Notes under the pieces: model-generated
Told to the model about the DNA's origin: nothing
Seen by the model: the letters and a program-made list of their open reading frames with translations, nothing else
The model's database searches: none
Made by a program: the position numbers and the translations under genes
Part shown: positions 5,803-63,535 of the stretch, piece by piece
Layout of the letters: each line of letters begins with the position of its first letter
Position numbering within the stretch: position 1 is the first letter of the stretch
Origin: Escherichia coli
GTDB taxonomy: Bacteria > Pseudomonadota > Gammaproteobacteria > Enterobacterales > Enterobacteriaceae
Assembly (NCBI RefSeq): GCF_003019035.1
Contig: NZ_CP027448.1
DNA: 64,000 bases
Direction: 5' to 3' (one strand)

Positions 5803-8800
5803 TCAGTCTCCGCCCAGGGTTTTCTCTTTCTGCAGGTCACGAACCATATCCCGCTCCATCTGCTGCAGACGCTCCTGCAGCAGATTTTCCCGGGCAACCT
5901 CCCGGACCGCTTCCCGCTCCCGTTGTGATTCACGCAGCACACTATCCGGCAGCGCGGCTTCCCGTTCAGTTATGGCAGCCCGGTCACGCTCCTGCCCGGC
6001 AATTTCCCTGACAGCCAGCTCTGTTTTGCCATCCGGCAGGTCAGGTTTGTTCTCTGCCATTTTACGGACAATTTCATCTGCGCGGCGTTCCGTTTCACGG
6101 CGGATGGCCTCTTCAGCCTGCCTCTGTGCCAGCACCTCTGCCGTGACCGGTTCGCCATTTCCGGCTCCCGGCTGGACGCTGTTGTCCGGGATATCCCCCC
6201 ACACGCGGCCACCGGTTATGGCACCGGGATTCCACGGACGGCCTTCACCGGCGATTCTTACCACCACACCACTGTCAGGATTATCACGGGCAATCCGGAC
6301 ACCATCCTGCATATTATCAGCCAGCAGGCTTTCTCCGTTACGGCTGCCCTGCAGGGCCACAAACTGTGCATCTTCACTGCCCTTCACCCGGCCTTCACCA
6401 CTGAATCCCCGCAGCCCGTTTCCGTCATCCGTGGTCAGCGGGTTCAGCCAGATACCGGCAGACTTGCCGTTACGGTCAAAAGCCGGCAGTGCCACATACG
6501 GCTGTGGGTATTTGCGCCCCGGAGCAATAAACCGTGCAGGACTGTCTCCCCCGGCCAGCCCCGCCTGACGAAGAACGGCTCGGCCTGCCGCCACGTCCCG
6601 CAGCTCCCGCGCCGTACTGAACAGCCGCTCTGCATTCATGACCTCCCGGTCCGATTTCGGCTCAAACACATCGTGGGCAGTTCCTTTCTGTTCGGCATTG
6701 TTAATGGCATCCGTCCAGCCCTGACGGTTATCGGTGTACACCTGCACATGCTGCTTCATACGCGACAGGGCCACGTAGGCTGACTCAAAGCCGGCCATCT
6801 GTTTCCGGCTGCCTTCCGTGCCTTCAAGCGCAATGGCAAAGGTTTCACTTGCCCCCTGCGCACCGTGGGCGGTGATGGCATAGGCCAGGTCAATATGTTG
6901 CTCTGCCCGCTCCTGACCGGGGCGAATCACCCGGGTCTGCTGTCCGCCCGACAGCGTGACACTGTCACCGGAAACCGCTGTCACCGTCCAGACGCTGTTG
7001 GCCACATAGCCGCGCTCCCGGTCACTCTTCGTGAAGCGCATCCGGTCACCGGTCCCCACCCGGATGGTGTCCGGGGTGTACAGTGTGACACCTTCAGCCA
7101 CCGCCTCCCGGGGCGAAATCAGCCGCGTGTTACCTTCCGCATCCTGCAGGGTTATCAGCCCGTCACCCTTACTGATACCGGCAATCCGGTGATACACATT
7201 ATCCACCAGGACAAGTGCGTCCCGATGTGTCTCCCAGGTGGAGAGACGACGCAACTCCCCGTCGCGTATATTCGCTGTGTTCAGGACAGGCACCATGACC
7301 TGCTCTTTCCCCAGCTCACCGGCCTTTTCCCGTGCATCATGAATCATGCTGTTCAGTACGCGCCGGTCCTCATTCAGGTGCGTGACAATAAGCGTCTGCT
7401 CCCGTGCTTCCGGCGTCCTGCCGGTATAGTCGCGGACAATGGCTTCATACAGTGTCATGGGGACATCCGGAAAAGCCTCGCCGTTCTGCATCGCCTTCTG
7501 CTGCGCTTCTGCCAGTTTCGCTTCCTGGCTGTGACTGAACTCCGTCACAGAGTGCTCCGGTACCCATGCGCCCTCCTGACGTGGCACCTGAGACGGTTTC
7601 ACACTCTCAAGCCCGGACAATGCCCTTTCCACATCCCGGTTAATCAGGCTGTATACCGCCTCCCGCAGTTCCGGCGTCTGACGCACAATCTCCTTCATGA
7701 TGGCCACATCGGCAGCGCTGCGCGTCTGCTGGAGACGGAAAGGCTGACCGGGCGCGATGGCCTGCAGCTGGTCCGTGTCACCGCTGGCCACTGCACGACC
7801 ACCACCGGCCGCAATCAGGGCATATGCCCGTGCCATGTCGGTATTGCCCACCATTGAGCTCTCATCGAGCAGGAACAGCGTGTTGCTGAAATCCGGCGTT
7901 TCTCCGCTGCGCAGCTGCAGCTGCGTGCCATGCAGAAAGGACGCCAGTGTCTGTGCATCCACGCCGGCGCTGCGCATCTCCCCGACCGCACGGTGCGTGG
8001 GCCCCAGCCCCACGACACGGGGACGCTCACTCTCCGGCAGCATGTTCACGGCTGACATCACCGCCCGGAACTGTGTGGTCTTACCCACACCGGCATAGCC
8101 CTGCACCACCGTGAAACGGTCGGACGTTTCCAGTATCATGCGGGTGGCGGCACGCTGTCCTGATGTCAGACTCTCCATGACTCCGCCAGGGACTCTCTCC
8201 ATCAGCGGCGTGACCGCCTCCTTACCTTCGAGAATATGGCGAAGAATGCTCTTTTCTGCCTCATACGACGCACGGGAAACCAGCAGGCCTGTGCCATAGC
8301 CTTTTGCCACATCCACATACAGTAAATCACCGCGTTTTATCTGCGCATTGATTTCCCCTCCCAGTTCAGTAAAACTGGTTCCTTCTGCAGCAAACGACTT
8401 CGCCTCTGTCAGCAGGTCCACCATGCTGAAGGCCAGGTTTTTACTTTCCAGCACAGGAAGGGCCAGATGAATGGCCTGCTGTGCCGGCGTGTGAAGCCCG
8501 GCTTTCTGCAGACTGATAGCGGTTTCCAGCAATGTCTCACCGGCACGCGCCTTTATCTGCTCAGAAACCACCGTAAAGGAGGGATGGCGGGCAAGGTTTT
8601 CCGCCGTACGGGTTTCATCCAGCGAGGAATACAGCCGGACATCACGACCGCTGCGGGCCAGACCGTTCAGGGTGGCGTTGTCCATTGCCATCTGTGTGAC
8701 GGAGGCAAAAACCTTCGCACTGTCGCTGACGGAATGCCCGGGCGTTTCCACCCAGCCGTTCTCCAGCTTCAGTGCCGTGAACGGTGAATCGCTCACAGGC

Positions 8801-53126: not shown

Positions 53127-54053
53127 TCATCCGCCATAATGCGCCACATTGTCGACTATCCACGCAGGTCCGGTGACCTCCGGCAGCTCATCGTCATCTG
53201 TCGGGGAAGACCATTCCTGTTCCCCCCACAGAACATCAACAAGCTCTCCACGCTCATATCGCTGCCAGCCACAGAAATTGCAGCCCTGTTCGGCATACCA
53301 GTGCTCCAGCGTGCAGCCGAAACGGCGGCTTAATTCTGCAACAACGTCGCTTTCCGGCTGACACCACGGCGTGTCAAAATCCACCTGAATGAAGTTTTCT
53401 CCCTGACGGCCGATATTCAGGTCATACCCACAAGGCCACTTCACGCCATACCGTTCCGTATACCAGTGATATGCAGAAGGAACACCGTTCAGAACACCAC
53501 CGTTAAAGCCGTTCACTTCAACATCCAGGCGGGTCGGCAGAACCGTCAGCAGGTCAAACGGCATGGTTTTTTCCGGCACTACGTTGTCACACAGACGGTT
53601 CCACCACACCGATACATCCTCGTTACTCCAGAAGCCACACCAGTCACCTCTTTTTGCGGTGAAAAGTGCGGTGATGGTATCCCTGACATCGTCCGGTAAT
53701 CCTTCCCAGCGACGCTGTCCAGTACCGCTCTGCAGCCAGAGTTCATGCAGCATCAGGCAGTTTTGCTCATCCAGCAGTACACCGTCCTGCAGATATGTCA
53801 GCCAGCGGGTGAACGCGATATTCTCCGGCGATACAACGCCACGCCCGGCAGCCGTCAGTCCGGGGCATGGTTCAAACCGCACATCTTCAGTGGTCTGCAG
53901 AAGTCCGGCACTTCCGGCCAGAAACAGCTGAATACCTTCATTTGTGGCGCGGCGATAAAGCGGTGTGACTGCGCCGCTGGCCAGTCGTTTAATCTCAGCG
54001 ATCTGTGCCGGTTCACCAGAAAAATACATACGATTCGAGCACCAGTTTGGCAT
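53127..54053 (-). CDS. Conserved leading-region protein, 308 aa (recalled as DUF1281-like)
   Basis: ATG 54053 with GAGGAG SD: MPNWCSNRMYFSGEPAQIAEIKRLASGAV...; the upstream extension in the track is unlikely. Confidence 0.6.
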   Translation of the reverse strand: MPNWCSNRMYFSGEPAQIAEIKRLASGAVTPLYRRATNEGIQLFLAGSAGLLQTTEDVRFEPCPGLTAAGRGVVSPENIAFTRWLTYLQDGVLLDEQNCLMLHELWLQSGTGQRRWEGLPDDVRDTITALFTAKRGDWCGFWSNEDVSVWWNRLCDNVVPEKTMPFDLLTVLPTRLDVEVNGFNGGVLNGVPSAYHWYTERYGVKWPCGYDLNIGRQGENFIQVDFDTPWCQPESDVVAELSRRFGCTLEHWYAEQGCNFCGWQRYERGELVDVLWGEQEWSSPTDDDELPEVTGPAWIVDNVAHYGG

Positions 54054-54407
54054 GGGAATTCTCCTCTCACATGCGGCCTCCATCAGGCCGTGCCGCACCT
54101 GTAACCGGGCGACCGCATACGAATGCAGGTGCGGCCCCGAAGCCGCAGCGCGTGGAGGAGGAACGACGAAACGTGACCGGGTGAGGAGGCCGGCGACAGC
54201 GACACACTTGCATCGGATGCAGCCCAGTTAACGTGCCGGCACGGCCTGGGTAACCAGGTATTTTGTCCACAGAACCGTGCACAAAATGCTGTGGATAAGC
54301 TGGACACAGCAGCCCACAGCAGGCATACAGCCACACCCTCAGAGAATTGAACGTTTTTTAGCCGCAACAATGACATTTGACTGTATGTGGATTCAGTTAT
54401 TAGAATG

Positions 54408-54446: not shown

Positions 54447-54695
54447 ATGATCCGCATTGAAATTCTTTTCGACCGCCAGAGCACAAAAAACCTCAAATCA
54501 GGCACACTTCAGGCGCTACAGAATGAAATCGAACAACGACTGAAACCACACTACCCGGAAATCTGGCTGCGTATAGACCAGGGCAGCGCCCCGTCTGTAT
54601 CTGTCACAGGAGCCCGCAACGACAAGGATAAAGAACGTATCCTGTCTCTGCTGGAAGAAATCTGGCAGGACGACAGCTGGCTGCCTGCAGCATGA
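54447..54695 (+). CDS. impC: ImpC, DinI-family protein, 82 aa
   Basis: ATG 54447: MIRIEILFDRQSTKNLKSGTLQALQNEIEQRLKPHYPEIWLRIDQGSA... (DinI-like pattern); overlaps impA start (ATGA). Confidence 0.8.
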   Translation: MIRIEILFDRQSTKNLKSGTLQALQNEIEQRLKPHYPEIWLRIDQGSAPSVSVTGARNDKDKERILSLLEEIWQDDSWLPAA

Positions 54696-55129
54696 GTACC
54701 GTTTATCACCGTCCGGCTGACCCTTCAGGCGATGACAGTTACGTGCGACCGTTGTTTGCCGATCGTTGCCAGGCCGGTTTTCCTTCGCCTGCCACTGATT
54801 ATGCTGAGCAGGAACTGGATCTGAACAGCTATTGCATCAGCAGACCTGCAGCCACCTTCTTTCTGCGCGCCAGCGGTGAATCGATGAACCAGGCTGACGT
54901 GCAGAATGGTGATCTGCTGGTAGTGGACAGGGCCGAAAAACCACAACACGGGGACATCGTTATCGCTGAGATCGACGGTGAGTTCACCGTCAAACGACTG
55001 CTGTTGCGCCCACGCCCGGCACTGGAGCCGGTTTCAGACAGCCCGGAGTTCCGCACACTGTATCCGGAAAACATCTGTATTTTTGGTGTTGTCACTCACG
55101 TGATACACAGGACGCGGGAGTTACGCTGA
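54692..55129 (+). CDS. impA: ImpA, UmuD-family S24 self-cleaving protein, 145 aa
   Basis: ...GFPSPATDY..., catalytic Ser in RASGESM and Lys in FTVKRL. Confidence 0.9.
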   Translation: MSTVYHRPADPSGDDSYVRPLFADRCQAGFPSPATDYAEQELDLNSYCISRPAATFFLRASGESMNQADVQNGDLLVVDRAEKPQHGDIVIAEIDGEFTVKRLLLRPRPALEPVSDSPEFRTLYPENICIFGVVTHVIHRTRELR

Positions 55130-55301: not shown

Positions 55302-57530
55302 TTATCTGACTACAATATTGATATCGTTTTCCGCAACAATCAGCATCACGGCAGGTAAACCCTCCACACGCATTTTCTGGTGTAATTTTTTGATTAAATT
55401 ATCATCTTCATTACTGGCTTTTGCGGAAAAGCCTTGTGGATGGGAGTGCCATTCGCCAACATAATCGACAACACGAGCGGTCAACTGGTGAACCCGTTCT
55501 AATGCTTCTTGTTGTCCCGCTTCTCCCCGGACAAAGGAGGCTGGAGAGGATTTACTGTCGATAGGTTCAGGGAGCACGTCAACCAGAATAATCGTTTTGT
55601 TCTTAAAATCTGTTATGCCAACAATTGCACCTCCTGTTTCATTAGGCAGTGCCTGTAAGCGGGTGTGCTGCAATTTTTGCGCTAAGCCCTGGTCATATTT
55701 AACAACCCATTCGCCAGAAATTATAGATACCACGGAATAGAGTTCAATTTCATGTGCATCCATCGCGCCTGATATTTCATCAGATACCCAGATACACAAT
55801 CGAGCATTTCCTTTGAGTGCAGTCTGGCGAAGTTGGCGTGAGAGGATACCGGCATGAACATGAATACATTCACTGGACATACGTACAGAAATATCCCGAC
55901 ATCCACCACCGACCCAACGATCGCCATAATTGTGCTGTAGGTGAGTACTTCCCCACTCACTGCTCAAAATTGCCCGATAGTATTGCCCCTCAATTGCATC
56001 AATTCGGCATTGTCTGTCTACATCCTCCATTAACATCACGCTAGACTGACCCGATGGAGTCAGAAACAGGCTAACTATTCTGGGTATATCATCTTTTAAC
56101 ACTAGAGTCCTCGGCACCTCAAAGGTGGTACTGACATCCACAACTAAGTCTGCCTCATTCATTGCCTTAGCAATATCATCATCGTCATCAAGAATACTTT
56201 TATGGATCGCCTGAGGGAGGGGCTCATGCGGATAAATAGATTTGGCAATATGCTGAATAATATGGGGTTTTGAGACTCCAATATGACAATCAAACCCAAT
56301 ATGGCGAGACAAATTATGTGGAAGAAGCCGATCTGGATCAATAAAAGTCCATGTCCCCCACCCCATTCGAATCCAAATATCAGCCAATGTACTACCAAGA
56401 GCGCCAACTCCAGCTAAAATACCTCGAAAAGCTGCACTCTCTGAATCAACAGCAGATATGTCTCTCGCATGTGTGGCCTTCATAGCCGAACGTATTTCAA
56501 CTGGTAAAAGCGGTAATTGTCGCCACTTGGTACTAATTGATCCGCCAAGAAGCCGTACGCGATGCTGTACTCCTCGCTCATTTTTTGGCGCCAGCATATC
56601 TAGTGCAGTGGCAAGTTCACCGAGTGAACTTTGCACAACATAGCCCATCACATCCGTACGTTCTGTTTCTCCGTTTCTTAGACGGGGGATCCAAAGCAGG
56701 ATAAGTAAGCCTTCTCCTTTACCAGACGTTGGGCGGATACCATCACTTGGTATTGCTTCATAAACAGCGTCAGTTAGTGGTTTTAGGAGCTCACTTCCCC
56801 ATTCATTAAGTTGTTCTTCTAATTTTCCCAGATTATCCGGGTATGTAGCCACCGTAGAAACATCGACAGGAGGAACAGCAATAGTTAATAAGCGAAATGG
56901 CTTAACGCTTGAGGTATCTTGTTCTGGTACAGCCCTTAAAATAATCGGTCGCCCCTCACTGACCATCTGGAGACTGAGCTTATTGTCAGTCGCGTGATGA
57001 TAATCGGGGTAATTGGCTGGCAAAATGAGCTGATAGGGACTCAAATAAAAAAGTTGCTCAAGTGGCTGATCTTCTCGATGTAGATGCAGTTCGGCCGATT
57101 CTCTAAGCCACCAAAAAATGCGCTCAAGGAATCTCTCGGGGGTCCAACTGCGCTCAACTGCGCTCCAGGAGGCCTCATATAGGCAAAGAATTCGTGGTGA
57201 GCCAGGTTCTCCAGCATGCTGGTGAGAAAGAACAGGGAAATCTTTCCGCAATGCATGAACCAAGATAGGTATGCTTGATTTGGGATTGACCTCAATAGCC
57301 AATCGTTCTTTACGACGAATACGGGCTTGATTACCAGAAGCCACAGTCCCATCAGCAGCATCAATGATTAGATATTCCGAGCGGTTATCATTTATTTCAG
57401 AAAATCGTAATTCTCTGACTGTGACGTAAGGATGATTCTCGCATGCTTTAAGCAGCGAAATCGTTTGTGGATAAAGGCTATCGCGCCCCGATGAATCGAG
57501 GCGCTCACCCAATTCGAAATATTCGATCAT
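55302..57530 (-). CDS. E2-like / E1 (ThiF) adenylation / JAB deubiquitinase-like triple-fusion protein, 742 aa (Cap2+Cap3-like)
   Basis: E2-like LSHQHAGEPGSPRILC(116)LYE. E1 GILAGVGALGS (G374-x-G-x-x-G379), FIDPDRLLPHNLSRH, ADLVVDVSTTFE, GGGC(544)RD. JAB NE(631)TGGAIVG and EWH(695)SH(697)PQGFSAKAS(706)NED(709). Confidence 0.8.
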   Translation of the reverse strand: MIEYFELGERLDSSGRDSLYPQTISLLKACENHPYVTVRELRFSEINDNRSEYLIIDAADGTVASGNQARIRRKERLAIEVNPKSSIPILVHALRKDFPVLSHQHAGEPGSPRILCLYEASWSAVERSWTPERFLERIFWWLRESAELHLHREDQPLEQLFYLSPYQLILPANYPDYHHATDNKLSLQMVSEGRPIILRAVPEQDTSSVKPFRLLTIAVPPVDVSTVATYPDNLGKLEEQLNEWGSELLKPLTDAVYEAIPSDGIRPTSGKGEGLLILLWIPRLRNGETERTDVMGYVVQSSLGELATALDMLAPKNERGVQHRVRLLGGSISTKWRQLPLLPVEIRSAMKATHARDISAVDSESAAFRGILAGVGALGSTLADIWIRMGWGTWTFIDPDRLLPHNLSRHIGFDCHIGVSKPHIIQHIAKSIYPHEPLPQAIHKSILDDDDDIAKAMNEADLVVDVSTTFEVPRTLVLKDDIPRIVSLFLTPSGQSSVMLMEDVDRQCRIDAIEGQYYRAILSSEWGSTHLQHNYGDRWVGGGCRDISVRMSSECIHVHAGILSRQLRQTALKGNARLCIWVSDEISGAMDAHEIELYSVVSIISGEWVVKYDQGLAQKLQHTRLQALPNETGGAIVGITDFKNKTIILVDVLPEPIDSKSSPASFVRGEAGQQEALERVHQLTARVVDYVGEWHSHPQGFSAKASNEDDNLIKKLHQKMRVEGLPAVMLIVAENDINIVVR

Positions 57531-58708
57531 TGGTTTGATACACCTGCCCTAGGAGCGGCGGCCGTAGCAGCACTTACCGCAGCTGAAACAGCACCAACAA
57601 TAGCGGGTATTAACTTCCCGTCTCCAGCCACTTCAAATTCAAGGAACGCTGTATCTTTAAGATCCCCCGTACAGCTAAACCAACCATCAACACTGTCCAG
57701 AATATCCTCATACTCACGCTTAGCCCGGATGCACGGTGGATCATAATCATCATCAAGTATCTGATTGCTACTCGATACAATTGTTGCCCCGGAACGAGCC
57801 TGACCTAAAGCATTACGGGCCGCATCACAAACTTCAGCATTCTCCCCCCATTGTGACCAGCTATCATAGGAAAGTGAATGCCATGAACAATGATGCGGTG
57901 TGAGGAGAAGATCATATTCTAGTGCCTCAGCATTGCTTTTGTAACGATCCCATAATCGCTCCCAGATGAGAACTTCTGCGTCTCCACCTAATAGAAAGTG
58001 CATAGGATTACGGGAATATGCAGAGGGCAGTATTTTCATGTTCATGATGATACTGGATTCGTTTTTAGAAAGAGCTTCTTCCAAATATTCATCATCTTCA
58101 TGTGGTGCGGGCGCCAGAAGCTGTGCGGAGAACACTTCTGAAATTTGCCCGTCAATTCTGGTGAATGTATCTCCAGCTTTGATAAGAATGGCACTCAGAT
58201 CATCTGTTTTGCCATTAATATCTTCACCCATGATAAGGATTCGATTACCGCTAGATGCATAACCATGTTCCCGCCAGTATTTTACTCGGCGCCGTGCTTC
58301 TGTATTAAATGCCTGAGCATCTTCGCAAAGTGTGTGACTTTTGGAACGACGCCGAAAAATCAATGGTGATGACCACAATTCTCGAATAATGATACGCTTT
58401 TCTGAACGTTTCACATCGTCATCTGGATAATCTTCAGGACGGCCCAGCCAGAAATGTTTACGCAGGCCACCGCAATGATCCTGATCGGGATGACTGAGCA
58501 TAAAAACATCAATAAAGGGACGATCTTTTTCATCATACTTCAATCTGCTACGTAATGCCGAGGCAACATCAGGTGTGTCATCATTGGGGTTATCAGCAGC
58601 AGAGCGAATATGTACATCAATCAGAATGGATGTGCCCCGGGTGTCGGCCAAACGTACCAGTGTCATATCACCGTTGCCGACTTGGAAAAAAGTAATTTTG
58701 GCTGCCAT
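57527..58708 (-). CDS. Metallo-beta-lactamase-fold hydrolase, ComEC/Rec2-like subtype, 393 aa, with Ala/Gly-rich C-terminal tail
   Basis: FFQVGNGDMTLV, LSHPDQDHCGG, LLGGDAE and LTPHHCS follow the ComEC-type MBL motif order. The AGGAG SD favours ATG at 58708 over 58714. The stop overlaps the next gene's start (ATGA at 57527..57530). Confidence 0.78.
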   Translation of the reverse strand: MAAKITFFQVGNGDMTLVRLADTRGTSILIDVHIRSAADNPNDDTPDVASALRSRLKYDEKDRPFIDVFMLSHPDQDHCGGLRKHFWLGRPEDYPDDDVKRSEKRIIIRELWSSPLIFRRRSKSHTLCEDAQAFNTEARRRVKYWREHGYASSGNRILIMGEDINGKTDDLSAILIKAGDTFTRIDGQISEVFSAQLLAPAPHEDDEYLEEALSKNESSIIMNMKILPSAYSRNPMHFLLGGDAEVLIWERLWDRYKSNAEALEYDLLLTPHHCSWHSLSYDSWSQWGENAEVCDAARNALGQARSGATIVSSSNQILDDDYDPPCIRAKREYEDILDSVDGWFSCTGDLKDTAFLEFEVAGDGKLIPAIVGAVSAAVSAATAAAPRAGVSNQ

Positions 58709-58767
58709 CGACATCTCCTTTAGGGATACGAAAGATTGAGGTTAAGAGCATCTATTGCTAAGATACA

Positions 58768-58795
58768 TCTAGTAATTATACTAGTCTAGTAATTA
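58768..58795. promoter_or_regulatory. Candidate operator in the divergent promoter region
   Basis: Direct repeats TCTAGTAATTA at 58768..58778 and 58785..58795, enclosing the palindrome TACTAG-T-CTAGTA (58779..58791). Confidence 0.4.
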
Positions 58796-58842
58796 GACGT
58801 ATATTTTGGACTTAAATTGTAAGTACAGGAAATTATTGATAA

Positions 58843-59697
58843 ATGAGTGATAAAATGGTGAGAACTGGTCATTGGAGCCAAGAAAGACGGCTTGAATTCA
58901 TCGATTTTCGCCTACTGTGGGAAGGTCGGCTTAACCGTGCAGATCTCACGACATTTTTCAGAATTTCAGTTCCGCAAGCCTCATTAGATTTGGCAAAATA
59001 TCAAGAAGTTGCGCCAAACAACATGGTGTATGATCGAACTCAGAAGGCTTACATTACGACTCCTGATTTCAAACCTGTTTTTACAAGCTTTGACAGTAAT
59101 CATTACCTGAATGAACTACTTGGGCGAGAAAATGAAATAGTGGATCCTGATGATAGTTTCATTGGGTGGGTACCCCCGGTAGCCAGCCTTCCTCTCCCTG
59201 CCAGGAAAGTACAACCTGAAATATTGATTGATTTAATTCGAGCCATGCAAAGAAAACAGGCTTTGGTTGTTGATTATCGCTCAATGACTAATGAACCAGC
59301 AATTCGTACGCTATACCCAACAGCATTTGCACATGATGGGCATCGGTGGCATGTTCGTGCTTATTGTTTTAAGTCTACAATGTTTAAAGATTTTGTTCTT
59401 GGTAGGTTTTTTAAAATCGTTGAATTTGTTTCCCCACCGACATCAATTCCACAAGATGTGGACTGGAATACATTTATTGACGTGGTAATAGGTCCAAACC
59501 CTAACTACGATATGAATAAACGGCTATCTATTGAACATGATTATCAAATGGTAAAAGGAGAAGCAAAAATCCACATACGTAAAGCGCAATTATATTATCT
59601 TAATCGTCGATTAAATTTGGATGTAAATAGCGATGGTTCAATAGATGACAAACAGCAGATCATCATGCTCAGAATAGACGAGTCTAAAACCTATTAA
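58843..59697 (+). CDS. wHTH-WYL-domain transcriptional regulator (CapW/BrxR-like), 284 aa
   Basis: N-terminal RRLEFIDFRLLWEGRLNRADLTTFFRISVPQASLDLAKYQ (wHTH); WYL-type core ALVVDYRSMTNEPAIRTLYPTAFAHDGHRWHVRAYCFKSTMFKDFVLGRF. Confidence 0.78.
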   Translation: MSDKMVRTGHWSQERRLEFIDFRLLWEGRLNRADLTTFFRISVPQASLDLAKYQEVAPNNMVYDRTQKAYITTPDFKPVFTSFDSNHYLNELLGRENEIVDPDDSFIGWVPPVASLPLPARKVQPEILIDLIRAMQRKQALVVDYRSMTNEPAIRTLYPTAFAHDGHRWHVRAYCFKSTMFKDFVLGRFFKIVEFVSPPTSIPQDVDWNTFIDVVIGPNPNYDMNKRLSIEHDYQMVKGEAKIHIRKAQLYYLNRRLNLDVNSDGSIDDKQQIIMLRIDESKTY

Positions 59698-59709
59698 GGG
59701 AATATTTAT

Positions 59710-60228
59710 ATGAATGCGAATGATGTTAACAAACGGAATAAAGAATGGATGATTGTAATCATTATTATCTATCTTTTTATTTTGTTATGTATAGCAACAT
59801 ACGCTATTGGGGCTATGTCTCTAGGTTGGTTACCAACACCTTACGCACCATTAAGGGTGCCACTGATGTGCGGAGCAATTGCCTATATAGGTGGTTGTTT
59901 ATATTGTTTTCGTGCAATTTACCTCAATAAATGTATTAGAAAACAATGGGATCCAGATTGGCATGTATGGTATTTCATTCGCCCACTGACCAGTACAATC
60001 GCAGGTGCTATCAGTTATTTATTCCTTAAGGCGGGGTTGTTAGTTTTGGAGTCTAGTTCCAATGTAGGAGCTAGTGAAATGGGTTTCTTTGCGCTGGCAT
60101 TTATTGCTGGTTTTAACGTCGATAAATTTGTCGCAAAAATCGAGGAAGTTGCAAAGGCTGTCTGGGGTATTGAAAAAACTCGAAGCTCGACTAATAATGA
60201 TGCGAAAAATTCGGAAAAAAAAGAATAG
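59710..60228 (+). CDS. Four-TM membrane protein with charged C-terminal helix, 172 aa
   Basis: Hydrophobic segments ~13-35, 50-70, 85-108 and 122-137; starts 13 nt after the WYL gene stop; no motif recognised. Confidence 0.6.
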   Translation: MNANDVNKRNKEWMIVIIIIYLFILLCIATYAIGAMSLGWLPTPYAPLRVPLMCGAIAYIGGCLYCFRAIYLNKCIRKQWDPDWHVWYFIRPLTSTIAGAISYLFLKAGLLVLESSSNVGASEMGFFALAFIAGFNVDKFVAKIEEVAKAVWGIEKTRSSTNNDAKNSEKKE

Positions 60229-60274: not shown

Positions 60275-62486
60275 TTACTTTCTCTTATTTCCTGGGGTCG
60301 CGCCCCCAGTGAGCTTATTCAAAAGTTTGTCCACTGCCTGTATATCGTTTTCTACAGCGGCTTGTTCGTCATCAGTCAAAGGGATTTCCTGCATCAGCTT
60401 GAGTAGATTCTGGCGACCTTCCAAGTATTGTGCTTCAGATGAAGATTTTGGCATATAAAATGAGCATTTTGCACATGCCATCCGATGGGGGCATTGCTCA
60501 AAAAAGTCATAAGTACAGAAACCGTGTCCAAGATCATAATAACGCCATGGCTTCCCGGATGCTACCAGCCCTTCAGCTATCGCGTCTTGATCAATGAGAA
60601 CTGAAACCATGCGGCGATTACATTCAAAGTAACCAGCTTTATCCAGTGATCCTGCCAACCTCGTCGGTGTAATTTCGACATAATGTCGGGTAGATTCAGG
60701 TGAAGAATGCCCCAACCATTTCTGTAGCTCAAAAATATCAAGTGGTTCCCTGGCGTTGTAAAGCTGACTGGCTATAGTGGCTCTTGCCCGATGGCTGGTG
60801 ATTTTACCTCTGGCATCCTGCTCAGGTATACCAGCCTTTCTGCATAGCAAAGGGATTAGCGAATTATTAATATAACTACTGTGTACCCGTTTCCCCCTGT
60901 GCATGAACAAAAAACGGACGCTTTCACCTGTTTTAGAATCTTCCTGGAGGGGGTGGGGGTTACGAACAAGTTCCCATTGTTCGATATATTCCCCGATAAT
61001 AGGGTCAACTGGCTTTGTGAATGCCGCGTAAGTCTTGCTAACGGGTACATCTATCAGACAGATACGGGATACATTATTTTCTTCTGGCTGTTGCCAGCGG
61101 ATACACCCACACTGCATACGTAGAATTTCATCACGTCTGAGGCCTCCAAATAACCAGAGAACGCTGAGTGCTCTGACCATCTCCAGTGGATAAAAATAAG
61201 GATATGCAACACAGTTTGGTAAATCCGACTCCTGCAGGTTCTGTCCGGCGTGAAGTAATTTACACCACATATCATCGGCCACAATACGAGGCTCTGGTCC
61301 AACCAGGGAAGTCAAGCTACGCGGTGCCCTGAAAACTCTTTCTGGGCTGAATCGTACAGGTATCCATCCCCATTCCTGCAAGTCATGAAAGAAAGTTCTA
61401 ATATGACCCAACATCCTGGCTCTCGCTGCAGGCATCATCATTTTGCCACGACGGTCACGATACATGCCCCCAGGGGTTGCCCATTCACCAACTTTCATTC
61501 TACAAGCGGCGGTCACCCAGACGATCGCGGTGTCCCGTGTCCAATCAGATGGTGACAGACAGGTTGGATAGCACTCAGCTAACCAGCTGACCACACTTTA
61601 GCAAAACGTACCAACCGGACAAAATAGATGAAGGGCGAAGTACTGAGGTAGCACGCCACCGTTTGCACCATACCAGCCATTTAGTTGGTACATCAGCTGT
61701 TGCATTATATTCGCGGGGAGGACGGCGACGTTGTGTTATTCGGTAATCAACCCCTTCCTCAATAGTCCCTGATGCAGCCAGTATACGCGATAGAGTAGCT
61801 GAGGCTTCCCGGAGGGAATCCGGGCACGTTGCAGCAATCTGTTGCAACGTGGTCACGGTGATATGGTCTAGTTGAGCATCCCTTTGCAGAAGCATTGCCA
61901 TACACATGGCATTTCTGATGCCGTTGTTCCGACTATCACGAGGCACATATCCCAGAACCTGCATCATATTGTCAAGCTGGCTGACGGCAAAATCGGTGCT
62001 CTGTCGGCCAAAAACCTTAAGACAGAGCCGATATTGATAGAATATGCCACAGTGTTCCAGCCGCTCAAACCCACATAGCAACCATGCTAACGCTATAACA
62101 TATTGCCGACAGTTGCCGCTGGCTCCAAACCGTCGACGAAATTCCCCTTCGCTGTTGCAAATAACTTCTAACCACTCTTCTTGTGTCCAGGCCCAGTATG
62201 TTTTCCGGATGCGCTGCATCTCTAGGACTATATCGTGAATAGATGAATTGTAGGGGGCCTTGGCCGCATGCATTTTTGTTAGCGTGTCGCGTAGTGGTAA
62301 AAGAAGGCGGGAAAGCCGTTTTTGTATATCAGGTGACCAGTTTTTACCTCCTTGCTGGAAGTGGTCGACCAATGTATCCAGTGCCGCAAGCTCGCTTTCA
62401 GAGATCTCCGATCGGGTATCCCAAAGTAGGGCAGGAAGACTGAGTGATGTTGTCGGACAAGGCGCTGTATGTTCAGATTGCATCAT
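60275..62486 (-). pseudogene. Large tyrosine recombinase (Tn554 TnpB-like) split by a 1-nt frameshift into 303-aa N-terminal and 439-aa catalytic ORFs
   Basis: ORF 61575..62486 has no catalytic residues and ends ...GWYVLLKCGQLVS*. ORF 60275..61594 (track start is a GTG) continues ...WLAECYP... and carries GGLRRDEI, SHRARATIASQL, GHSSPESTRHYVE (R-H-R-Y) and a CPHRMACAKC motif. The frames overlap at 61575..61594. ATG 62486 overlaps the upstream stop (ATGATG). Confidence 0.65.
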
Positions 62487-63535
62487 GGAGAAGGATCCTG
62501 CTGTTGTAGTACAGTAAGGCGGCAAGTATGCAAGGATGCGACCGTGTAATTGAAACGACTACTCAGATCACGTGCGCTGAGATGAATATAGAGCAGAGTT
62601 GACTGGATACGACGGTGGCCAGCGAATGCAGCAATTTCGTGGATGTCCCACCCCACGCGTGCCAGTTCTGTCAGACAAAGATGTCGGAATGTGTGGGTGC
62701 TGATGAGTGGAAGATCAGCCTTAATAGCTAAACCGCGAACTACTTTTGACCAAGTCCAGTTGCTAATAGGTTCTGCCCGATTACGCGGAGAGCGTGAGAG
62801 AAACAACGGACCGCGAGATGAGCTTAGCATACGACGTTCAGTGAGCCATGCTGTGTAGAGTTCCCCCGTCACAGGAGAATAGGGCACAACCCGACCAAAG
62901 CGGTTTTTGGTATGCTCAGCGCGCACAGTGAGCAAGCGTTGAGAAGGGTCAATATCTCCGGTAGCTACTGTGCAAAGTTCTTCTCTGCGTAATCCGCAGT
63001 CGTAGGCCAGTGCCAGCATAAAACGAGTACGGATATCAGCTTGTCCGGCTACCTCAAGAAAGCGCAACCACTCCGCATCATCCGGGATCCACGGTAGCCG
63101 CCGCTGCAACGGCACTATACCAGCTTTTCCTTTCCCTCCGTTTTTCCAGACACCTCGTCTGACAGGATTTCTCTCCCGTATCCCCTCCTCACAAAGCCAA
63201 TAGTTGTACAGTCGTACCACCGTCAGCCGGTGGCGGATAGTGGCAGCTGCCAGCTGGCGACCGGTATGCAGGCTGCGGACATAGAGTGCGACCGTATCAC
63301 GTCCAGCGACAGCAGCCGTCAGGGCAACAGAGTGACAGAAAGCGAGCCAGTCATTGACGCCACGGGCATAGGCATCAATGGTGTTTGGAGCACACAGCAG
63401 GTCCTCCTGCAGGCACACCCACCGGCAAGCTGAAGGATCGGCCGACAGAAAAGGCAGCGCATCCAGCAGTTTCTTGTGCACAGCATCCCCCTTTTCGATA
63501 ACAGAATGTGTTGTATGAAATATAGTCAATTCCAA
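62483..63535 (-). CDS. Tyrosine recombinase (TnpA/XerD-like), up to 350 aa
   Basis: Catalytic set GLRREEL, HTFRHLCLT, GHRRIQSTLLYIH. The track start (63535) is a TTG only 8 nt from the element end; GTG at 63481 with a GGGGGA SD is a plausible alternative. Confidence 0.85.
   Translation of the reverse strand: MELTIFHTTHSVIEKGDAVHKKLLDALPFLSADPSACRWVCLQEDLLCAPNTIDAYARGVNDWLAFCHSVALTAAVAGRDTVALYVRSLHTGRQLAAATIRHRLTVVRLYNYWLCEEGIRERNPVRRGVWKNGGKGKAGIVPLQRRLPWIPDDAEWLRFLEVAGQADIRTRFMLALAYDCGLRREELCTVATGDIDPSQRLLTVRAEHTKNRFGRVVPYSPVTGELYTAWLTERRMLSSSRGPLFLSRSPRNRAEPISNWTWSKVVRGLAIKADLPLISTHTFRHLCLTELARVGWDIHEIAAFAGHRRIQSTLLYIHLSARDLSSRFNYTVASLHTCRLTVLQQQDPSP

What the first reader, a model, noticed from the sequence alone, without database searches (positions are those of the whole stretch)
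57530..57619. MBL hydrolase ends in an Ala/Gly/Ser-rich tail (...KLIPAIVGAVSAAVSAATAAAPRAG-VSNQ): possible E1 substrate in place of a Ubl, or a tail anchor
No ubiquitin-like ORF exists in the element. The intergenic gaps are only 45, 134, 12 and 46 bp, and every >=60-aa alternative ORF is nested inside a larger gene.

The only protein translationally coupled to the E2-E1-JAB enzyme is the MBL hydrolase. Its last ~30 residues form a low-complexity small-residue tail ending AG-VSNQ.

In type II CBASS the CD-NTase's own C-terminus (Gly/Ala) is adenylated and conjugated by Cap2, and this is reversed by Cap3. By analogy, the JAB domain could trim VSNQ and the E1/E2 modules could conjugate the hydrolase through the exposed Gly. 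This would prime or localise a ComEC-like nuclease.

Alternative reading: the 20-residue hydrophobic stretch is a C-terminal membrane anchor.
Basis: inference. Interest (0 to 1): 0.8.

Follow-up and report, generated by a model that had tools for sequence, protein, structure and literature searches.

The report
6A-MBL nuclease's conjugation tail
The odd Ala-rich tail is the disordered C-terminal "handle" of the nuclease-like protein of a known plasmid-borne anti-phage system (6A-MBL), and comparison with hundreds of relatives indicates that its conserved ...PRAG glycine is what the neighbouring E2-E1-JAB enzyme activates and attaches to a target, much as ubiquitin is attached.

Summary
The 395-aa MBL-fold ORF (57527..58714, minus strand) ends ...AAAPRAG-VSNQ*, and its stop codon overlaps (ATGA) the start of a 742-aa E2-E1-JAB protein.

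Both proteins match NCBI's curated equivalog models for the anti-phage "6A-MBL" system (Iyer 2006 operon type 6a; van den Berg 2024). The locus is 100% identical to many E. coli/Klebsiella plasmids, so the system is already known.

- The last ~22 residues are predicted disordered.
- PRAG is kept in 108 of 115 close homologues, with synonymous codon changes.
- PRAG is followed by 0-7 variable residues.
- Of 76 diverse relatives, 58 end exactly in Gly or Ala and 14 more carry such a motif plus a short extension.
- 92 of 92 assessable neighbours, plus three more distant family members, encode an E2-E1 enzyme. Within those 92 loci the tail motif class tracks the enzyme class.
- Two relatives without the motif have no E1/E2 neighbour.
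- All E2, E1 and JAB catalytic residues are invariant.

The membrane-anchor alternative is not supported. The field already assumes MBL conjugation by analogy with Cap2/Cap3, but I found no biochemistry. The conjugation chemistry, its target and its effect remain inferred.

The parts
57527..58714 (-). 6A-MBL system MBL-fold (ComEC-like) hydrolase. It is 395 aa from the first ATG; the likely true start is Met3 at 58708.
   Evidence: - NCBIfam NF058524 '6A-MBL_enzyme' scores 425.6 bits against a cut-off of 220.
- The AlphaFold2 model has pLDDT 89.5.
- The Foldseek top hit is the ComEC MBL domain 9ic4, E 4e-14.
- Metal-binding residues H75, D77, D79, H80, D245, H274 and H275 are invariant or nearly so in 48 and 34 homologues.
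57530..57595 (-). Disordered C-terminal tether (residues 374-395), rich in Ala, Ser, Gly and Val
   Evidence: - pLDDT is below 50 for residues 374-395.
- The 20 residues before PRAG in 108 homologues are 43% Ala, 14% Val, 10% Ser and 7% Gly.
- Tether length is conserved: median 33 residues.
57542..57553 (-). PRAG motif (residues 388-391). Gly391 is the predicted reactive C-terminal residue for E1 adenylation.
   Evidence: - The motif is present in 108 of 115 close homologues.
- Its codons vary synonymously across loci: CCT/CCC/CCG, CGC/CGG/CGA/AGG, GCC/GCG/GCA/GCT, GGT/GGC.
- 21 of those 108 homologues end exactly at this Gly.
57530..57541 (-). VSNQ, a predicted C-terminal propeptide that must be removed to expose Gly391
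   Evidence: - Extension length (0, 2, 3, 4, 6 or 7 residues) and sequence vary among homologues.
- It usually ends at the ATGA overlap with the partner gene.
- Removal is inferred, not shown.
55302..57530 (-). cap2_3: an E2-E1-JAB triple-domain enzyme of 742 aa
   Evidence: - NCBIfam NF058523 '6A-MBL_cap2_3' scores 661 bits against a cut-off of 320.
- Pfam finds Prok-E2_A, ThiF and Prok-JAB.
- PADLOC finds E1-E2 and JAB models.
- The E1 region matches Cap2 structure 7tsq.
57009..57332 (-). E2 (Prok-E2_A) domain, residues 67-174. The predicted catalytic Cys116 is at 57183..57185.
   Evidence: Pfam hit. C116 is invariant in 16 diverse partner proteins.
55899..56426 (-). E1 adenylation domain (ThiF match at residues 369-472), extending to the predicted catalytic Cys544 (55899..55901)
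   Evidence: G374, G376, G379, R388, D398, H405, R409, K421 and C544 are invariant; N406 is nearly invariant.
55329..55682 (-). JAB/JAMM metallopeptidase domain, residues 617-734
   Evidence: Pfam Prok-JAB. E631, H695, H697, S706 and D709 are invariant. There is a weak match to the Cap3 model NF050170.
58843..59697 (+). Divergently transcribed WYL-domain regulator (CapW/BrxR-like), the likely repressor of the operon
   Evidence: - Pfam WYL and PADLOC WYL hits.
- A homologue lies on the opposite strand 105-175 nt (a few at 231-502 nt) upstream of the MBL gene in 63 loci. 96 loci have at least 1.2 kb of upstream sequence.
- One RefSeq record annotates it as BrxR family.
58760..58805 (.). Imperfect palindrome in the MBL/WYL intergenic region, a candidate operator
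   Evidence: One search finds 26-nt arms at 77% complementarity. Function was not tested.

Best explanation
**What it is.** The region is a 6A-MBL anti-phage operon on an enterobacterial conjugative plasmid. It has three parts:
- a ComEC-like metallo-beta-lactamase-fold hydrolase, probably a nuclease;
- a translationally coupled E2-E1-JAB enzyme ('cap2_3');
- a divergent WYL repressor.

**Role of the tail.** There is no ubiquitin-like protein. The hydrolase itself plays that role through a ~30-residue disordered tether that ends in PRAG-VSNQ.

**Proposed cycle.**
1. A peptidase, most likely the JAB domain, removes VSNQ and exposes Gly391.
2. The E1 domain adenylates the Gly391 carboxylate and forms a thioester on Cys544.
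3. The hydrolase passes to the E2 Cys116.
4. It is ligated to an amine on an unknown target.
5. The JAB domain can reverse the link.

By analogy with Cap2/Cap3 and CD-NTases in type II CBASS, conjugation would prime or position the hydrolase for defence.

**Shown here.**
- The identity of the system.
- Disorder of the tail.
- Family-wide conservation of a terminal Gly or Ala.
- Variability of the extension.
- The obligatory E2-E1 neighbour.
- Intact catalytic residues.

**Inferred.** Every chemical step, the trimming enzyme, the target, and the effect on activity.
For: **System identity**
- Both proteins match NCBIfam equivalog models well above cut-off.
- Iyer et al. 2006 described this two-gene operon as type 6a.
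- It is cited as the anti-phage system '6A-MBL'.

**The tail**
- Residues 374-395 have pLDDT below 50, on an otherwise confident model.
- PRAG occurs in 108 of 115 close homologues, followed by an extension of 0 (21), 2 (13), 3 (37), 4 (34) or 6-7 (3) residues.
- Of 76 representatives, 58 end in G (43) or A (15) and 14 more have the motif plus 1-6 residues.
- One of the 4 apparent exceptions is TYG plus 9 residues, and it has an E2-E1 neighbour.
- Synonymous codon variation in PRAG excludes a nucleotide-level constraint.

**Coupling to the enzyme**
- Tails ending RAG or HG pair with a fused Prok-E2_A-ThiF-JAB enzyme in 81 of 81 loci.
- Tails ending FA or YA pair with a Cap2-like Prok-E2_B-ThiF enzyme in 11 of 11 loci. 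A separate JAB gene follows in the three of these loci I examined.
- FA-type tails (...PNKPAGFA) resemble the Cap2 substrate tail of E. cloacae CdnD (...PQKTGRFA, quoted).

**Natural controls**
- The same MBL core fused to an AGS_C sensor domain (P0125) has no tail motif and no E1/E2 neighbour.
- P0193 has no motif and no E1/E2 neighbour.

**Enzyme competence**
- C116, the GxGxxG/R388/D398/R409 adenylation residues, C544 and the JAMM residues are invariant in 16 diverse partners.

**Precedent**
- Cap2 adenylates and conjugates the disordered, conserved C-terminus of cGAS. Cap3 cleaves exactly after its last residue.
- JAB peptidases can also process pre-proteins.
Against: - There is no biochemical evidence, either here or in any paper I could read. 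The original 6A-MBL paper (van den Berg 2024) is not in the library.
- Trimming is not universal. 21 of 108 PRAG-clade proteins, and most HG-clade proteins, already end at Gly. The JAB domain's main role may therefore be deconjugation, and the extension may be a tolerated by-product of the ATGA gene overlap.
- The loci are phylogenetically related, so the link between motif class and enzyme class may rest on only two or three independent events.
- One distant member ending ...SYA pairs with a fused enzyme, so the class rule is not absolute.
- The strong Ala/Val enrichment of the tether in the PRAG clade (Kyte-Doolittle mean 1.87) is not required by this model and is unexplained.
Confidence: 0.75

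Rival explanations
1. **Proteolytic licensing only.** The JAB domain clips the hydrolase to switch on a latent nuclease, as trypsin-like proteases do for related ComEC-like MBL zymogens. No conjugation takes place.
For: - Defence-associated ComEC-like MBL nucleases (HamM, VcMBL) are zymogens activated by site-specific proteolysis.
- The window protein gives partial PADLOC hits to MBL models from such modules: LmuA-associated and RTasMBL.
- The Gly is followed by a removable extension in most PRAG-clade members.
Against: - Those zymogens are cut at two internal insertions by trypsin-like proteases, not at the extreme C-terminus.
- Many family members have no extension to remove.
- This model gives no reason for the invariant E2 Cys, E1 adenylation site and E1 Cys, or for the requirement that the residue be Gly or Ala.
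Confidence: 0.08
2. **Tail anchor.** The ~20-residue hydrophobic stretch is a C-terminal membrane anchor that places the hydrolase at the membrane.
For: - The best 19-residue window (LIPAIVGAVSAAVSAATAA) has a Kyte-Doolittle mean of 1.87, above the classic 1.6 screen.
- A conserved 4-TM protein is encoded nearby.
Against: - On the Hessa biological scale, summed without position weighting, the same window is +3.4 kcal/mol. None of 115 homologues falls below +1.
- Only 41 of 115 homologues reach a Kyte-Doolittle mean of 1.6.
- Tails in the HG, YG and YA clades are polar or charged, for example ...KVNRDGSDGYA and ...KEKSKLSVAALASTKESYPHG.
- What is conserved is the terminal motif, not the hydrophobicity.
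- AlphaFold2 predicts no helix: the tail is coil with pLDDT around 30-40.
Confidence: 0.04
3. **Non-conjugative chemistry.** The E1 domain adenylates the tail for some other reaction, such as a ThiS/MoaD-like thiocarboxylate or an MccB-like C-terminal modification, rather than attaching it to a target.
For: - ThiF-family enzymes carry out such reactions on C-terminal Gly or Asn (general knowledge of ThiF/MoeB/MccB).
- The E1 region also gives weak hits to ThiF and MoeB models.
Against: - An E2 domain with an invariant Cys and a JAB isopeptidase are fused in the same polypeptide. This is the signature of transfer and deconjugation.
- No sulfur-transfer or metabolic genes accompany the operon.
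- The closest characterised relative, Cap2, conjugates its substrate.
Confidence: 0.05
4. **A separate modifier exists.** The real substrate is a ubiquitin-like protein encoded elsewhere, and the hydrolase tail is only a docking element or a target.
For: Other bacterial operon types (Bil, Bub) do use dedicated Ubls.
Against: - No conserved Ubl-sized ORF lies next to the operon in 104 loci.
- The operon is mobile (plasmids, islands) and was described as self-contained with two genes.
- A conserved terminal Gly/Ala on a disordered tether of fixed length is the property of a substrate, not of a target.
Confidence: 0.03
5. **Nucleotide-level constraint.** PRAG is conserved because it overlaps the ribosome-binding site or coupling signal of the downstream gene, not because of any protein function.
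For: In the window, the PRAG codons (CCT AGG GCA GGT) are purine-rich and lie 13-24 nt upstream of the partner's ATG.
Against: - All four codons vary synonymously across loci, including AGG versus CGN for Arg.
- The motif's distance to the downstream start varies with extension length.
- The HG, YG and YA clades keep a terminal Gly/Ala with entirely different codons.
Confidence: 0.01

Closest known systems
6A-MBL anti-phage system (operon type 6a of Iyer, Burroughs & Aravind 2006; named and tested by van den Berg et al. 2024, Cell Host Microbe 32:1427)
   Same: - It has the same two genes in the same order: an MBL-fold protein followed by an E2-E1-JAB triple-domain protein.
- Both proteins pass NCBIfam equivalog cut-offs.
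   Different: - Nothing differs at the system level; this is a member.
- The curated MBL model stops at residue 364 and does not cover the tail.
- In the literature I could read, I found no description of the PRAG or propeptide features. The founding paper was not readable here.
Type II CBASS Cap2 (E2-E1) / Cap3 (JAB) acting on the CD-NTase C-terminus (Ledvina 2023; Jenson 2023)
   Same: - An enzyme, not a beta-grasp Ubl, carries a disordered C-terminal tail ending in Gly or Ala next to an E2-E1 enzyme and a JAB peptidase.
- The E1 region is homologous to Cap2.
- A sub-clade of MBL operons uses the true Cap2 architecture (Prok-E2_B-ThiF plus a separate JAB), with ...GFA/...GYA tails like CdnD's ...GRFA.
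   Different: - The substrate is a ComEC-like hydrolase, not a nucleotide cyclase.
- There is no second-messenger effector gene.
- In the window the E2 is family A, and E2, E1 and JAB are one polypeptide.
- Most PRAG-clade tails carry a 2-4-residue extension that has to be removed first, which was not described for CD-NTases in the text I read.
Ubiquitin/Ubl precursors and Bil-system Ubls processed by JAB or DUB enzymes
   Same: - A C-terminal Gly is masked by a short variable propeptide.
- An Arg lies two residues before the reactive Gly (R-A-G versus ubiquitin's R-G-G; the ubiquitin comparison is from general knowledge).
- JAB peptidases can expose reactive C-termini.
   Different: There is no beta-grasp domain. 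The 'modifier' is a 40-kDa enzyme.
Trypsin-MBL (HamM/VcMBL) nuclease-protease defence modules
   Same: - The effector is a ComEC-like MBL fold in a defence context, with an adjacent gene that controls it post-translationally.
- There are partial PADLOC hits to those MBL models.
   Different: Control there is by a trypsin-like endoprotease cutting internal occluding loops. Here the partner is an E1-E2-JAB enzyme and the conserved element is the extreme C-terminus.

Membership tests
6A-MBL anti-phage system | MBL-fold protein of the 6A-MBL family | tested here: met
   NF058524 equivalog: 425.6 bits against a cut-off of 220, covering residues 9-364.
6A-MBL anti-phage system | Single polypeptide with E2, E1 and JAB domains (cap2_3) | tested here: met
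   NF058523 equivalog: 661 bits against a cut-off of 320. Pfam finds Prok-E2_A, ThiF and Prok-JAB in that order.
6A-MBL anti-phage system | The two genes are adjacent and co-oriented, with the MBL gene upstream | tested here: met
   There is a 4-nt ATGA overlap. The same arrangement holds in 92 of 92 assessable related loci.
6A-MBL anti-phage system | Protects against phage | not testable with these tools
   Reported for a P. aeruginosa system, as cited. Not tested for this plasmid copy.
Type II CBASS | CD-NTase (SMODS) cyclase as the conjugated enzyme | tested here: not met
   The operon has no CD-NTase; the upstream gene is an MBL-fold protein.
Type II CBASS | Cap2-type E2-E1 enzyme and Cap3-type JAB peptidase | tested here: met
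   PADLOC E1-E2 and JAB models hit. The E1 region matches Cap2 structure 7tsq. There is a weak Cap3 model hit. Here the domains are fused and the E2 is family A.
Type II CBASS | Substrate enzyme has a disordered tail with a conserved terminal Gly or Ala | tested here: met
   definition taken.
Type II CBASS | Cyclic-nucleotide-activated effector gene | tested here: not met
   None found in the operon or its flanks.
Ubiquitin-like (beta-grasp) modifiers | Beta-grasp fold | tested here: not met
   The model is an MBL alpha-beta/beta-alpha sandwich; the top structural hits are ComEC, Pce and RNase J. No Ubl-sized conserved ORF lies nearby.
Ubiquitin-like (beta-grasp) modifiers | Flexible C-terminus ending in Gly, often masked by a propeptide | tested here: met
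   PRAG plus 0-7 residues. The tail is predicted disordered.
Ubiquitin-like (beta-grasp) modifiers | C-terminus is adenylated, thioesterified and ligated to targets | not testable with these tools
   This needs biochemistry.
Tail-anchored membrane proteins | C-terminal segment hydrophobic enough to insert into a membrane, and conserved as such | tested here: not met
   The Hessa-scale sum is +3.4 kcal/mol, and 0 of 115 homologues fall below +1. Tails in distant clades are polar. No helix is predicted.
Protease-licensed MBL nuclease zymogens (HamM-like) | Adjacent trypsin-like protease that cuts internal occluding insertions | tested here: not met
   The partner has no trypsin domain; it is E2-E1-JAB. 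Whether the window protein has occluding insertions was not examined.

The most novel reading that the evidence does not exclude
**Reading.** The terminal motif plus tether is a portable 'address tag'. It moves together with its matching E2-E1(-JAB) module between unrelated defence enzymes: CD-NTases, Pycsar cyclases and ComEC-like nucleases.

**Two specific consequences in the PRAG clade.**
- The 2-4-residue propeptide would make the JAB domain an obligatory activator as well as an antagonist.
- The tag would tether the nuclease covalently to a specific site. Candidates are the unusually well-conserved 4-TM protein encoded beside the WYL gene, or an incoming phage component. This would place a ComEC-like nuclease at the point of DNA entry.

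**What my evidence allows.**
- It is compatible with the tag being portable: FA-type MBL tails look like CdnD tails.
- It neither supports nor excludes any particular target.
Probability: 0.07. Interest if true: 0.75.

Novelty: already known. Interest (0 to 1): 0.35.

Why it matters
6A-MBL is one of the bacterial ubiquitination-like defence pathways. It is carried here on widespread E. coli and Klebsiella conjugative plasmids.

**A directly testable prediction.** The reactive residue is predicted to be Gly391 of PRAG, masked by VSNQ. This makes the presumed 'enzyme as its own ubiquitin' mechanism testable for a nuclease-type effector.

**A substrate code.** The family-wide motif classes (RAG, HG and YG, versus FA and YA) may show how E1 enzymes of the Cap2 lineage choose their substrates.

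**Modular control.** The natural variants suggest that one nuclease core can be placed under quite different controls:
- in this family, a conjugation tail or a fused AGS_C cyclic-nucleotide sensor domain;
- in related ComEC-like MBL nucleases, cleavage by a trypsin-like protease.

**For the scan.** This is a correct inference about a system that is already catalogued, not a new system.

Tried and rejected
**Could not be run or read**
- **E1-tail complex model.** I tried to model the tail in the E1 pocket with a Ledvina-style chimera: E1 domain, GS linker, then the last 16 residues, as a 7-sequence paired alignment.
- **van den Berg 2024.** Not held in the library. I cannot say whether that paper already describes the tail.
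- **Ledvina 2023 (PMC10292035).** Not held, so I used its preprint.
- **Literature searches.** Searches combining MBL or lactamase with E1/E2/JAB/Cap2 terms found no biochemical study of the 6A-MBL tail.

**Gave nothing useful**
- **Pfam on the MBL protein.** No hit.

**Considered and rejected**
- **A natural MBL-E2-E1-JAB fusion (P0128, 1166 aa).** Its MBL part degenerates after about residue 280 and reads through, so it is a frameshift artefact.
- **PRAG as a ribosome-binding-site constraint.** Rejected because the codons vary synonymously.
- **A strict rule 'Gly pairs with the fused enzyme, Ala with the Cap2-type enzyme'.** This holds in 92 of 92 loci at 43% identity or more. It fails for a distant ...SYA member that pairs with a fused enzyme.
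- **Conserved small ORFs as hidden Ubls.** Only frame shadows of the WYL and membrane-protein genes turned up.

**Uninformative look-ups**
- P0255 and P0151 sit on contigs too short to show a neighbour.
- In P0201 only 88 residues of the neighbour are present.

Full report
**1. The observation**

Window 57527..58714 (minus strand) translates to a 395-aa protein ending ...GKLIPAIVGAVSAAVSAATAAAPRAGVSNQ*. The flagged interval 57530..57619 encodes residues 366-395.

The stop codon (57527..57529) overlaps the ATG (57528..57530) of the next ORF as ATGA. That ORF is 55302..57530 and encodes 742 aa. Pfam finds Prok-E2_A (residues 67-174), ThiF (369-472) and Prok-JAB (617-734) in it, in that order. 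PADLOC finds many CBASS-type 'E1-E2' and 'JAB' models.

The upstream protein has no Pfam hit. Three lines support the MBL fold:
- it gives partial PADLOC hits to MBL models;
- its AlphaFold2 model is confident (mean pLDDT 89.5, pTM 0.89);
- the best solved matches are the ComEC beta-lactamase-like nuclease domain 9ic4 (E 4e-14, TM 0.71 on the target), then Pce and RNase J.

Its metal-binding residues (H75, D77, D79, H80, D245, H274, H275) are invariant or nearly so in two alignments of 48 and 34 homologues.

One small correction: homologues align from Met3, so the true start is probably 58708.

**2. What the locus is**

Both proteins match curated NCBIfam equivalog models of a named defence system:

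| Protein | Model | Score (bits) | Cut-off |
|---|---|---|---|
| MBL-fold protein | NF058524 'anti-phage 6A-MBL system MBL-fold protein' | 425.6 | 220 |
| E2-E1-JAB protein | NF058523 'anti-phage 6A-MBL system cap2_3 protein' | 661 | 320 |

[quoted passage not shown] It is cited as the anti-phage system 6A-MBL of van den Berg et al. 2024. It is also listed among jumbo-phage defences of P. aeruginosa.

The 4.4-kb region is 100% identical to many E. coli plasmids, for example NC_011413.1. It matches 229 plasmid records, mostly Klebsiella and mostly conjugative.

A WYL-domain regulator (58843..59697) is transcribed divergently. A homologue occupies the same position in 63 related loci, usually 105-175 nt upstream on the opposite strand; 96 loci have enough upstream sequence to judge. 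This fits the CapW/BrxR type of defence regulator. An imperfect palindrome lies in the intergenic region.

**3. Is the tail meaningful?**

*Disorder.* The AlphaFold2 model is confident up to residue 373, then drops below pLDDT 50 for residues 374-395. The tail is a disordered appendage, not part of the fold.

*Close homologues.*
- Of 115 full-length close homologues, 108 carry (P)RAG near the end. Five carry P-x-H-G, one ends ...GGFA, and one reads through after PRAG.
- After the Gly there are 0 residues in 21 proteins, 2 in 13, 3 in 37, 4 in 34, and 6-7 in 3.
- The extension has no conserved sequence.

*The wider family.* I looked at 76 full-length representatives of 50%-identity clusters, 28-58% identical to the query.
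- 58 end exactly in Gly (43) or Ala (15), mostly as HG, YG or YA.
- 14 more have such a motif followed by 1-6 residues.
- Only 4 lacked it. One of these is TYG plus 9 residues and has an E2-E1 neighbour.

Nothing else in the last ~30 residues can be aligned across these clades. Yet the distance from the last conserved strand to the reactive residue is stable: median 33 residues, 10th-90th percentile 29-37, n = 102.

*Codon check.* PRAG codons differ synonymously at every position among loci, including AGG versus CGN for Arg. Selection therefore acts on the protein, not on an overlapping ribosome-binding site.

**4. Coupling to the enzyme**

In 104 related loci from genomes and metagenomes, the downstream gene could be assessed in 92. 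It is always an E2-E1 enzyme, overlapping or within a few bases of the MBL stop.

| Tail ending | Neighbour | Loci |
|---|---|---|
| RAG or HG | fused Prok-E2_A-ThiF-JAB protein, mostly 740-790 aa | 81 of 81 |
| FA or YA | Cap2-like Prok-E2_B-ThiF protein, 575-598 aa | 11 of 11 |

In the three FA/YA loci I examined, a separate JAB gene follows the Cap2-like gene.

The FA tails (...PNKPAGFA) look like the Cap2 substrate tail of E. cloacae CdnD (...PQKTGRFA, quoted).

More distant members ending ...SYG...TYG plus 9 residues, and ...SYA also sit next to fused E2-E1 enzymes. The presence of the motif predicts the enzyme, but the Gly/Ala class rule is not absolute.

Two natural controls point the same way:
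- The same MBL core (54% identity) fused to an AGS_C sensor domain has no tail motif and no E1/E2 neighbour (P0125).
- A relative without the motif (P0193) also has no E1/E2 neighbour.

No conserved Ubl-sized ORF accompanies the operon.

Across 16 diverse fused partners at 16-65% identity, these residues are invariant:
- the E2 Cys (C116);
- the adenylation-site residues G374, G376, G379, R388, D398, H405, R409 and K421;
- the E1 Cys (C544);
- the JAMM residues E631, H695, H697, S706 and D709.

**5. Mechanism**

The hydrolase is its own 'ubiquitin'.

1. The JAB domain (or another peptidase) removes VSNQ.
2. The E1 domain adenylates Gly391 and takes it as a thioester on C544.
3. It passes to C116 of the E2 domain and is ligated to an unknown amine.
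4. The JAB domain can reverse the link.

The precedent is direct. Cap2 adenylates and conjugates the disordered, conserved C-terminus of cGAS, and Cap3 cleaves exactly after its last residue. JAB peptidases in other bacterial pathways also process pre-proteins.

All the chemistry, the target and the consequence (priming versus localisation) are inferred. The extension usually ends at the ATGA overlap. It may simply be a by-product of translational coupling that is tolerated because a trimming peptidase is built in.

**6. Rivals**

- **Tail anchor.** The segment reaches a Kyte-Doolittle mean of 1.87. But it scores +3.4 kcal/mol on the Hessa scale, and no homologue falls below +1. Tails in other clades are polar, and no helix is predicted. 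Not supported.
- **JAB-only proteolytic licensing.** Related ComEC-like MBLs are zymogens cut by trypsin-like proteases. That does not explain the invariant E1/E2 chemistry or the members that have no extension.
- **Non-conjugative adenylation chemistry** and **a Ubl encoded elsewhere** are both unlikely, for the reasons given in the rivals list.
- **A nucleotide-level constraint** is refuted.

**7. Novelty**

The system is catalogued, and this copy is identical to many sequenced plasmids.

The mechanistic idea is already stated as an assumption. [quoted passage not shown]

I found no paper in the library that shows this biochemically or describes the following features:
- the PRAG-plus-propeptide anatomy;
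- the motif classes;
- the AGS_C-fused variants.

The founding paper could not be read.

**Verdict.** The inference is correct and well supported, but it concerns a known system. Interest is moderate to low. Its main value is a precise, testable prediction about the reactive residue.

Noticed in passing
window 59710..60228 (+): A 172-aa ORF with about four predicted TM segments lies 12 nt downstream of the WYL gene.
- It has no Pfam, NCBIfam or PADLOC hit.
- Homologues occur in 27 related 6A-MBL loci at 59-100% identity.
- It is often better conserved than the adjacent genes. In L001 it is 92% identical, against 68% for WYL, 72% for MBL and 65% for cap2_3.
- In a few loci it sits in a different position or orientation.
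- It could be an unrecognised accessory component of the PRAG-clade systems.
   Followed up: partly
window 58760..58805 and 58843..59697 (+): An imperfect 26-nt-arm palindrome lies in the 128-nt MBL/WYL intergenic region, and may be the operator of the WYL (CapW/BrxR-like) regulator. A divergent WYL gene is found in 63 related loci spanning the RAG, HG and FA tail classes.
   Followed up: partly
P0125 / L111:1229-2743; P0151 / L117:572-2170: MBL cores 41-54% identical to the window protein are fused at the C-terminus to an AGS_C domain (PF18134) in place of the Gly/Ala tail. L111 has no E1/E2 neighbour; the L117 contig is too short to tell. The same effector core appears to be placed under a different control input.
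   Followed up: partly
L013, L058, L059, L061, L071, L104, L105 (MBL C-termini): MBL proteins paired with Cap2-type (Prok-E2_B-ThiF) enzymes end ...P(N/S)K(P/S)AGFA. This closely resembles the E. cloacae CdnD tail ...PQKTGRFA used in the Cap2 structures. It suggests the tail and its ligase are exchanged as a unit, or converge on the same pocket.
   Followed up: partly
L115:1-3464 and 7385-8140; L116:3645-4400: In a distant 6A-MBL-like operon:
- the upstream regulator is a Peptidase_M78 protein with a small partner (CapH/CapP-like) rather than WYL;
- a CBASS operon (SMODS plus E2-CBASS) lies next door;
- a conserved 251-aa third gene overlaps the end of the E2-E1-JAB gene.
   Followed up: no
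window 58708 vs 58714: The MBL ORF has two in-frame ATGs (MSMAAK...). Homologues start at the position of Met3 (consensus MxAKITFF). The annotated start is probably 58708, and residue numbers would then be 2 lower.
   Followed up: yes
window 60275..63535 (-), 54692..55129 (+), 53127..54098 (-): The defence operon is flanked on one side by three consecutive ORFs (439, 316 and 350 aa). The first and third have Phage_integrase hits; the middle one has no Pfam hit. On the other side lie an S24 (UmuD/LexA-like) peptidase and a DUF1281 protein. This suggests a recombinase-bounded cargo module within the plasmid.
   Followed up: no
L031:5685 onward; H16 NZ_CP011136.1: Some copies look inactivated. 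In L031, whose MBL is 92% identical to the window's, the partner ORF is only 592 aa. In E. coli VR50 plasmid the locus is interrupted by an IS3 transposase.
   Followed up: no
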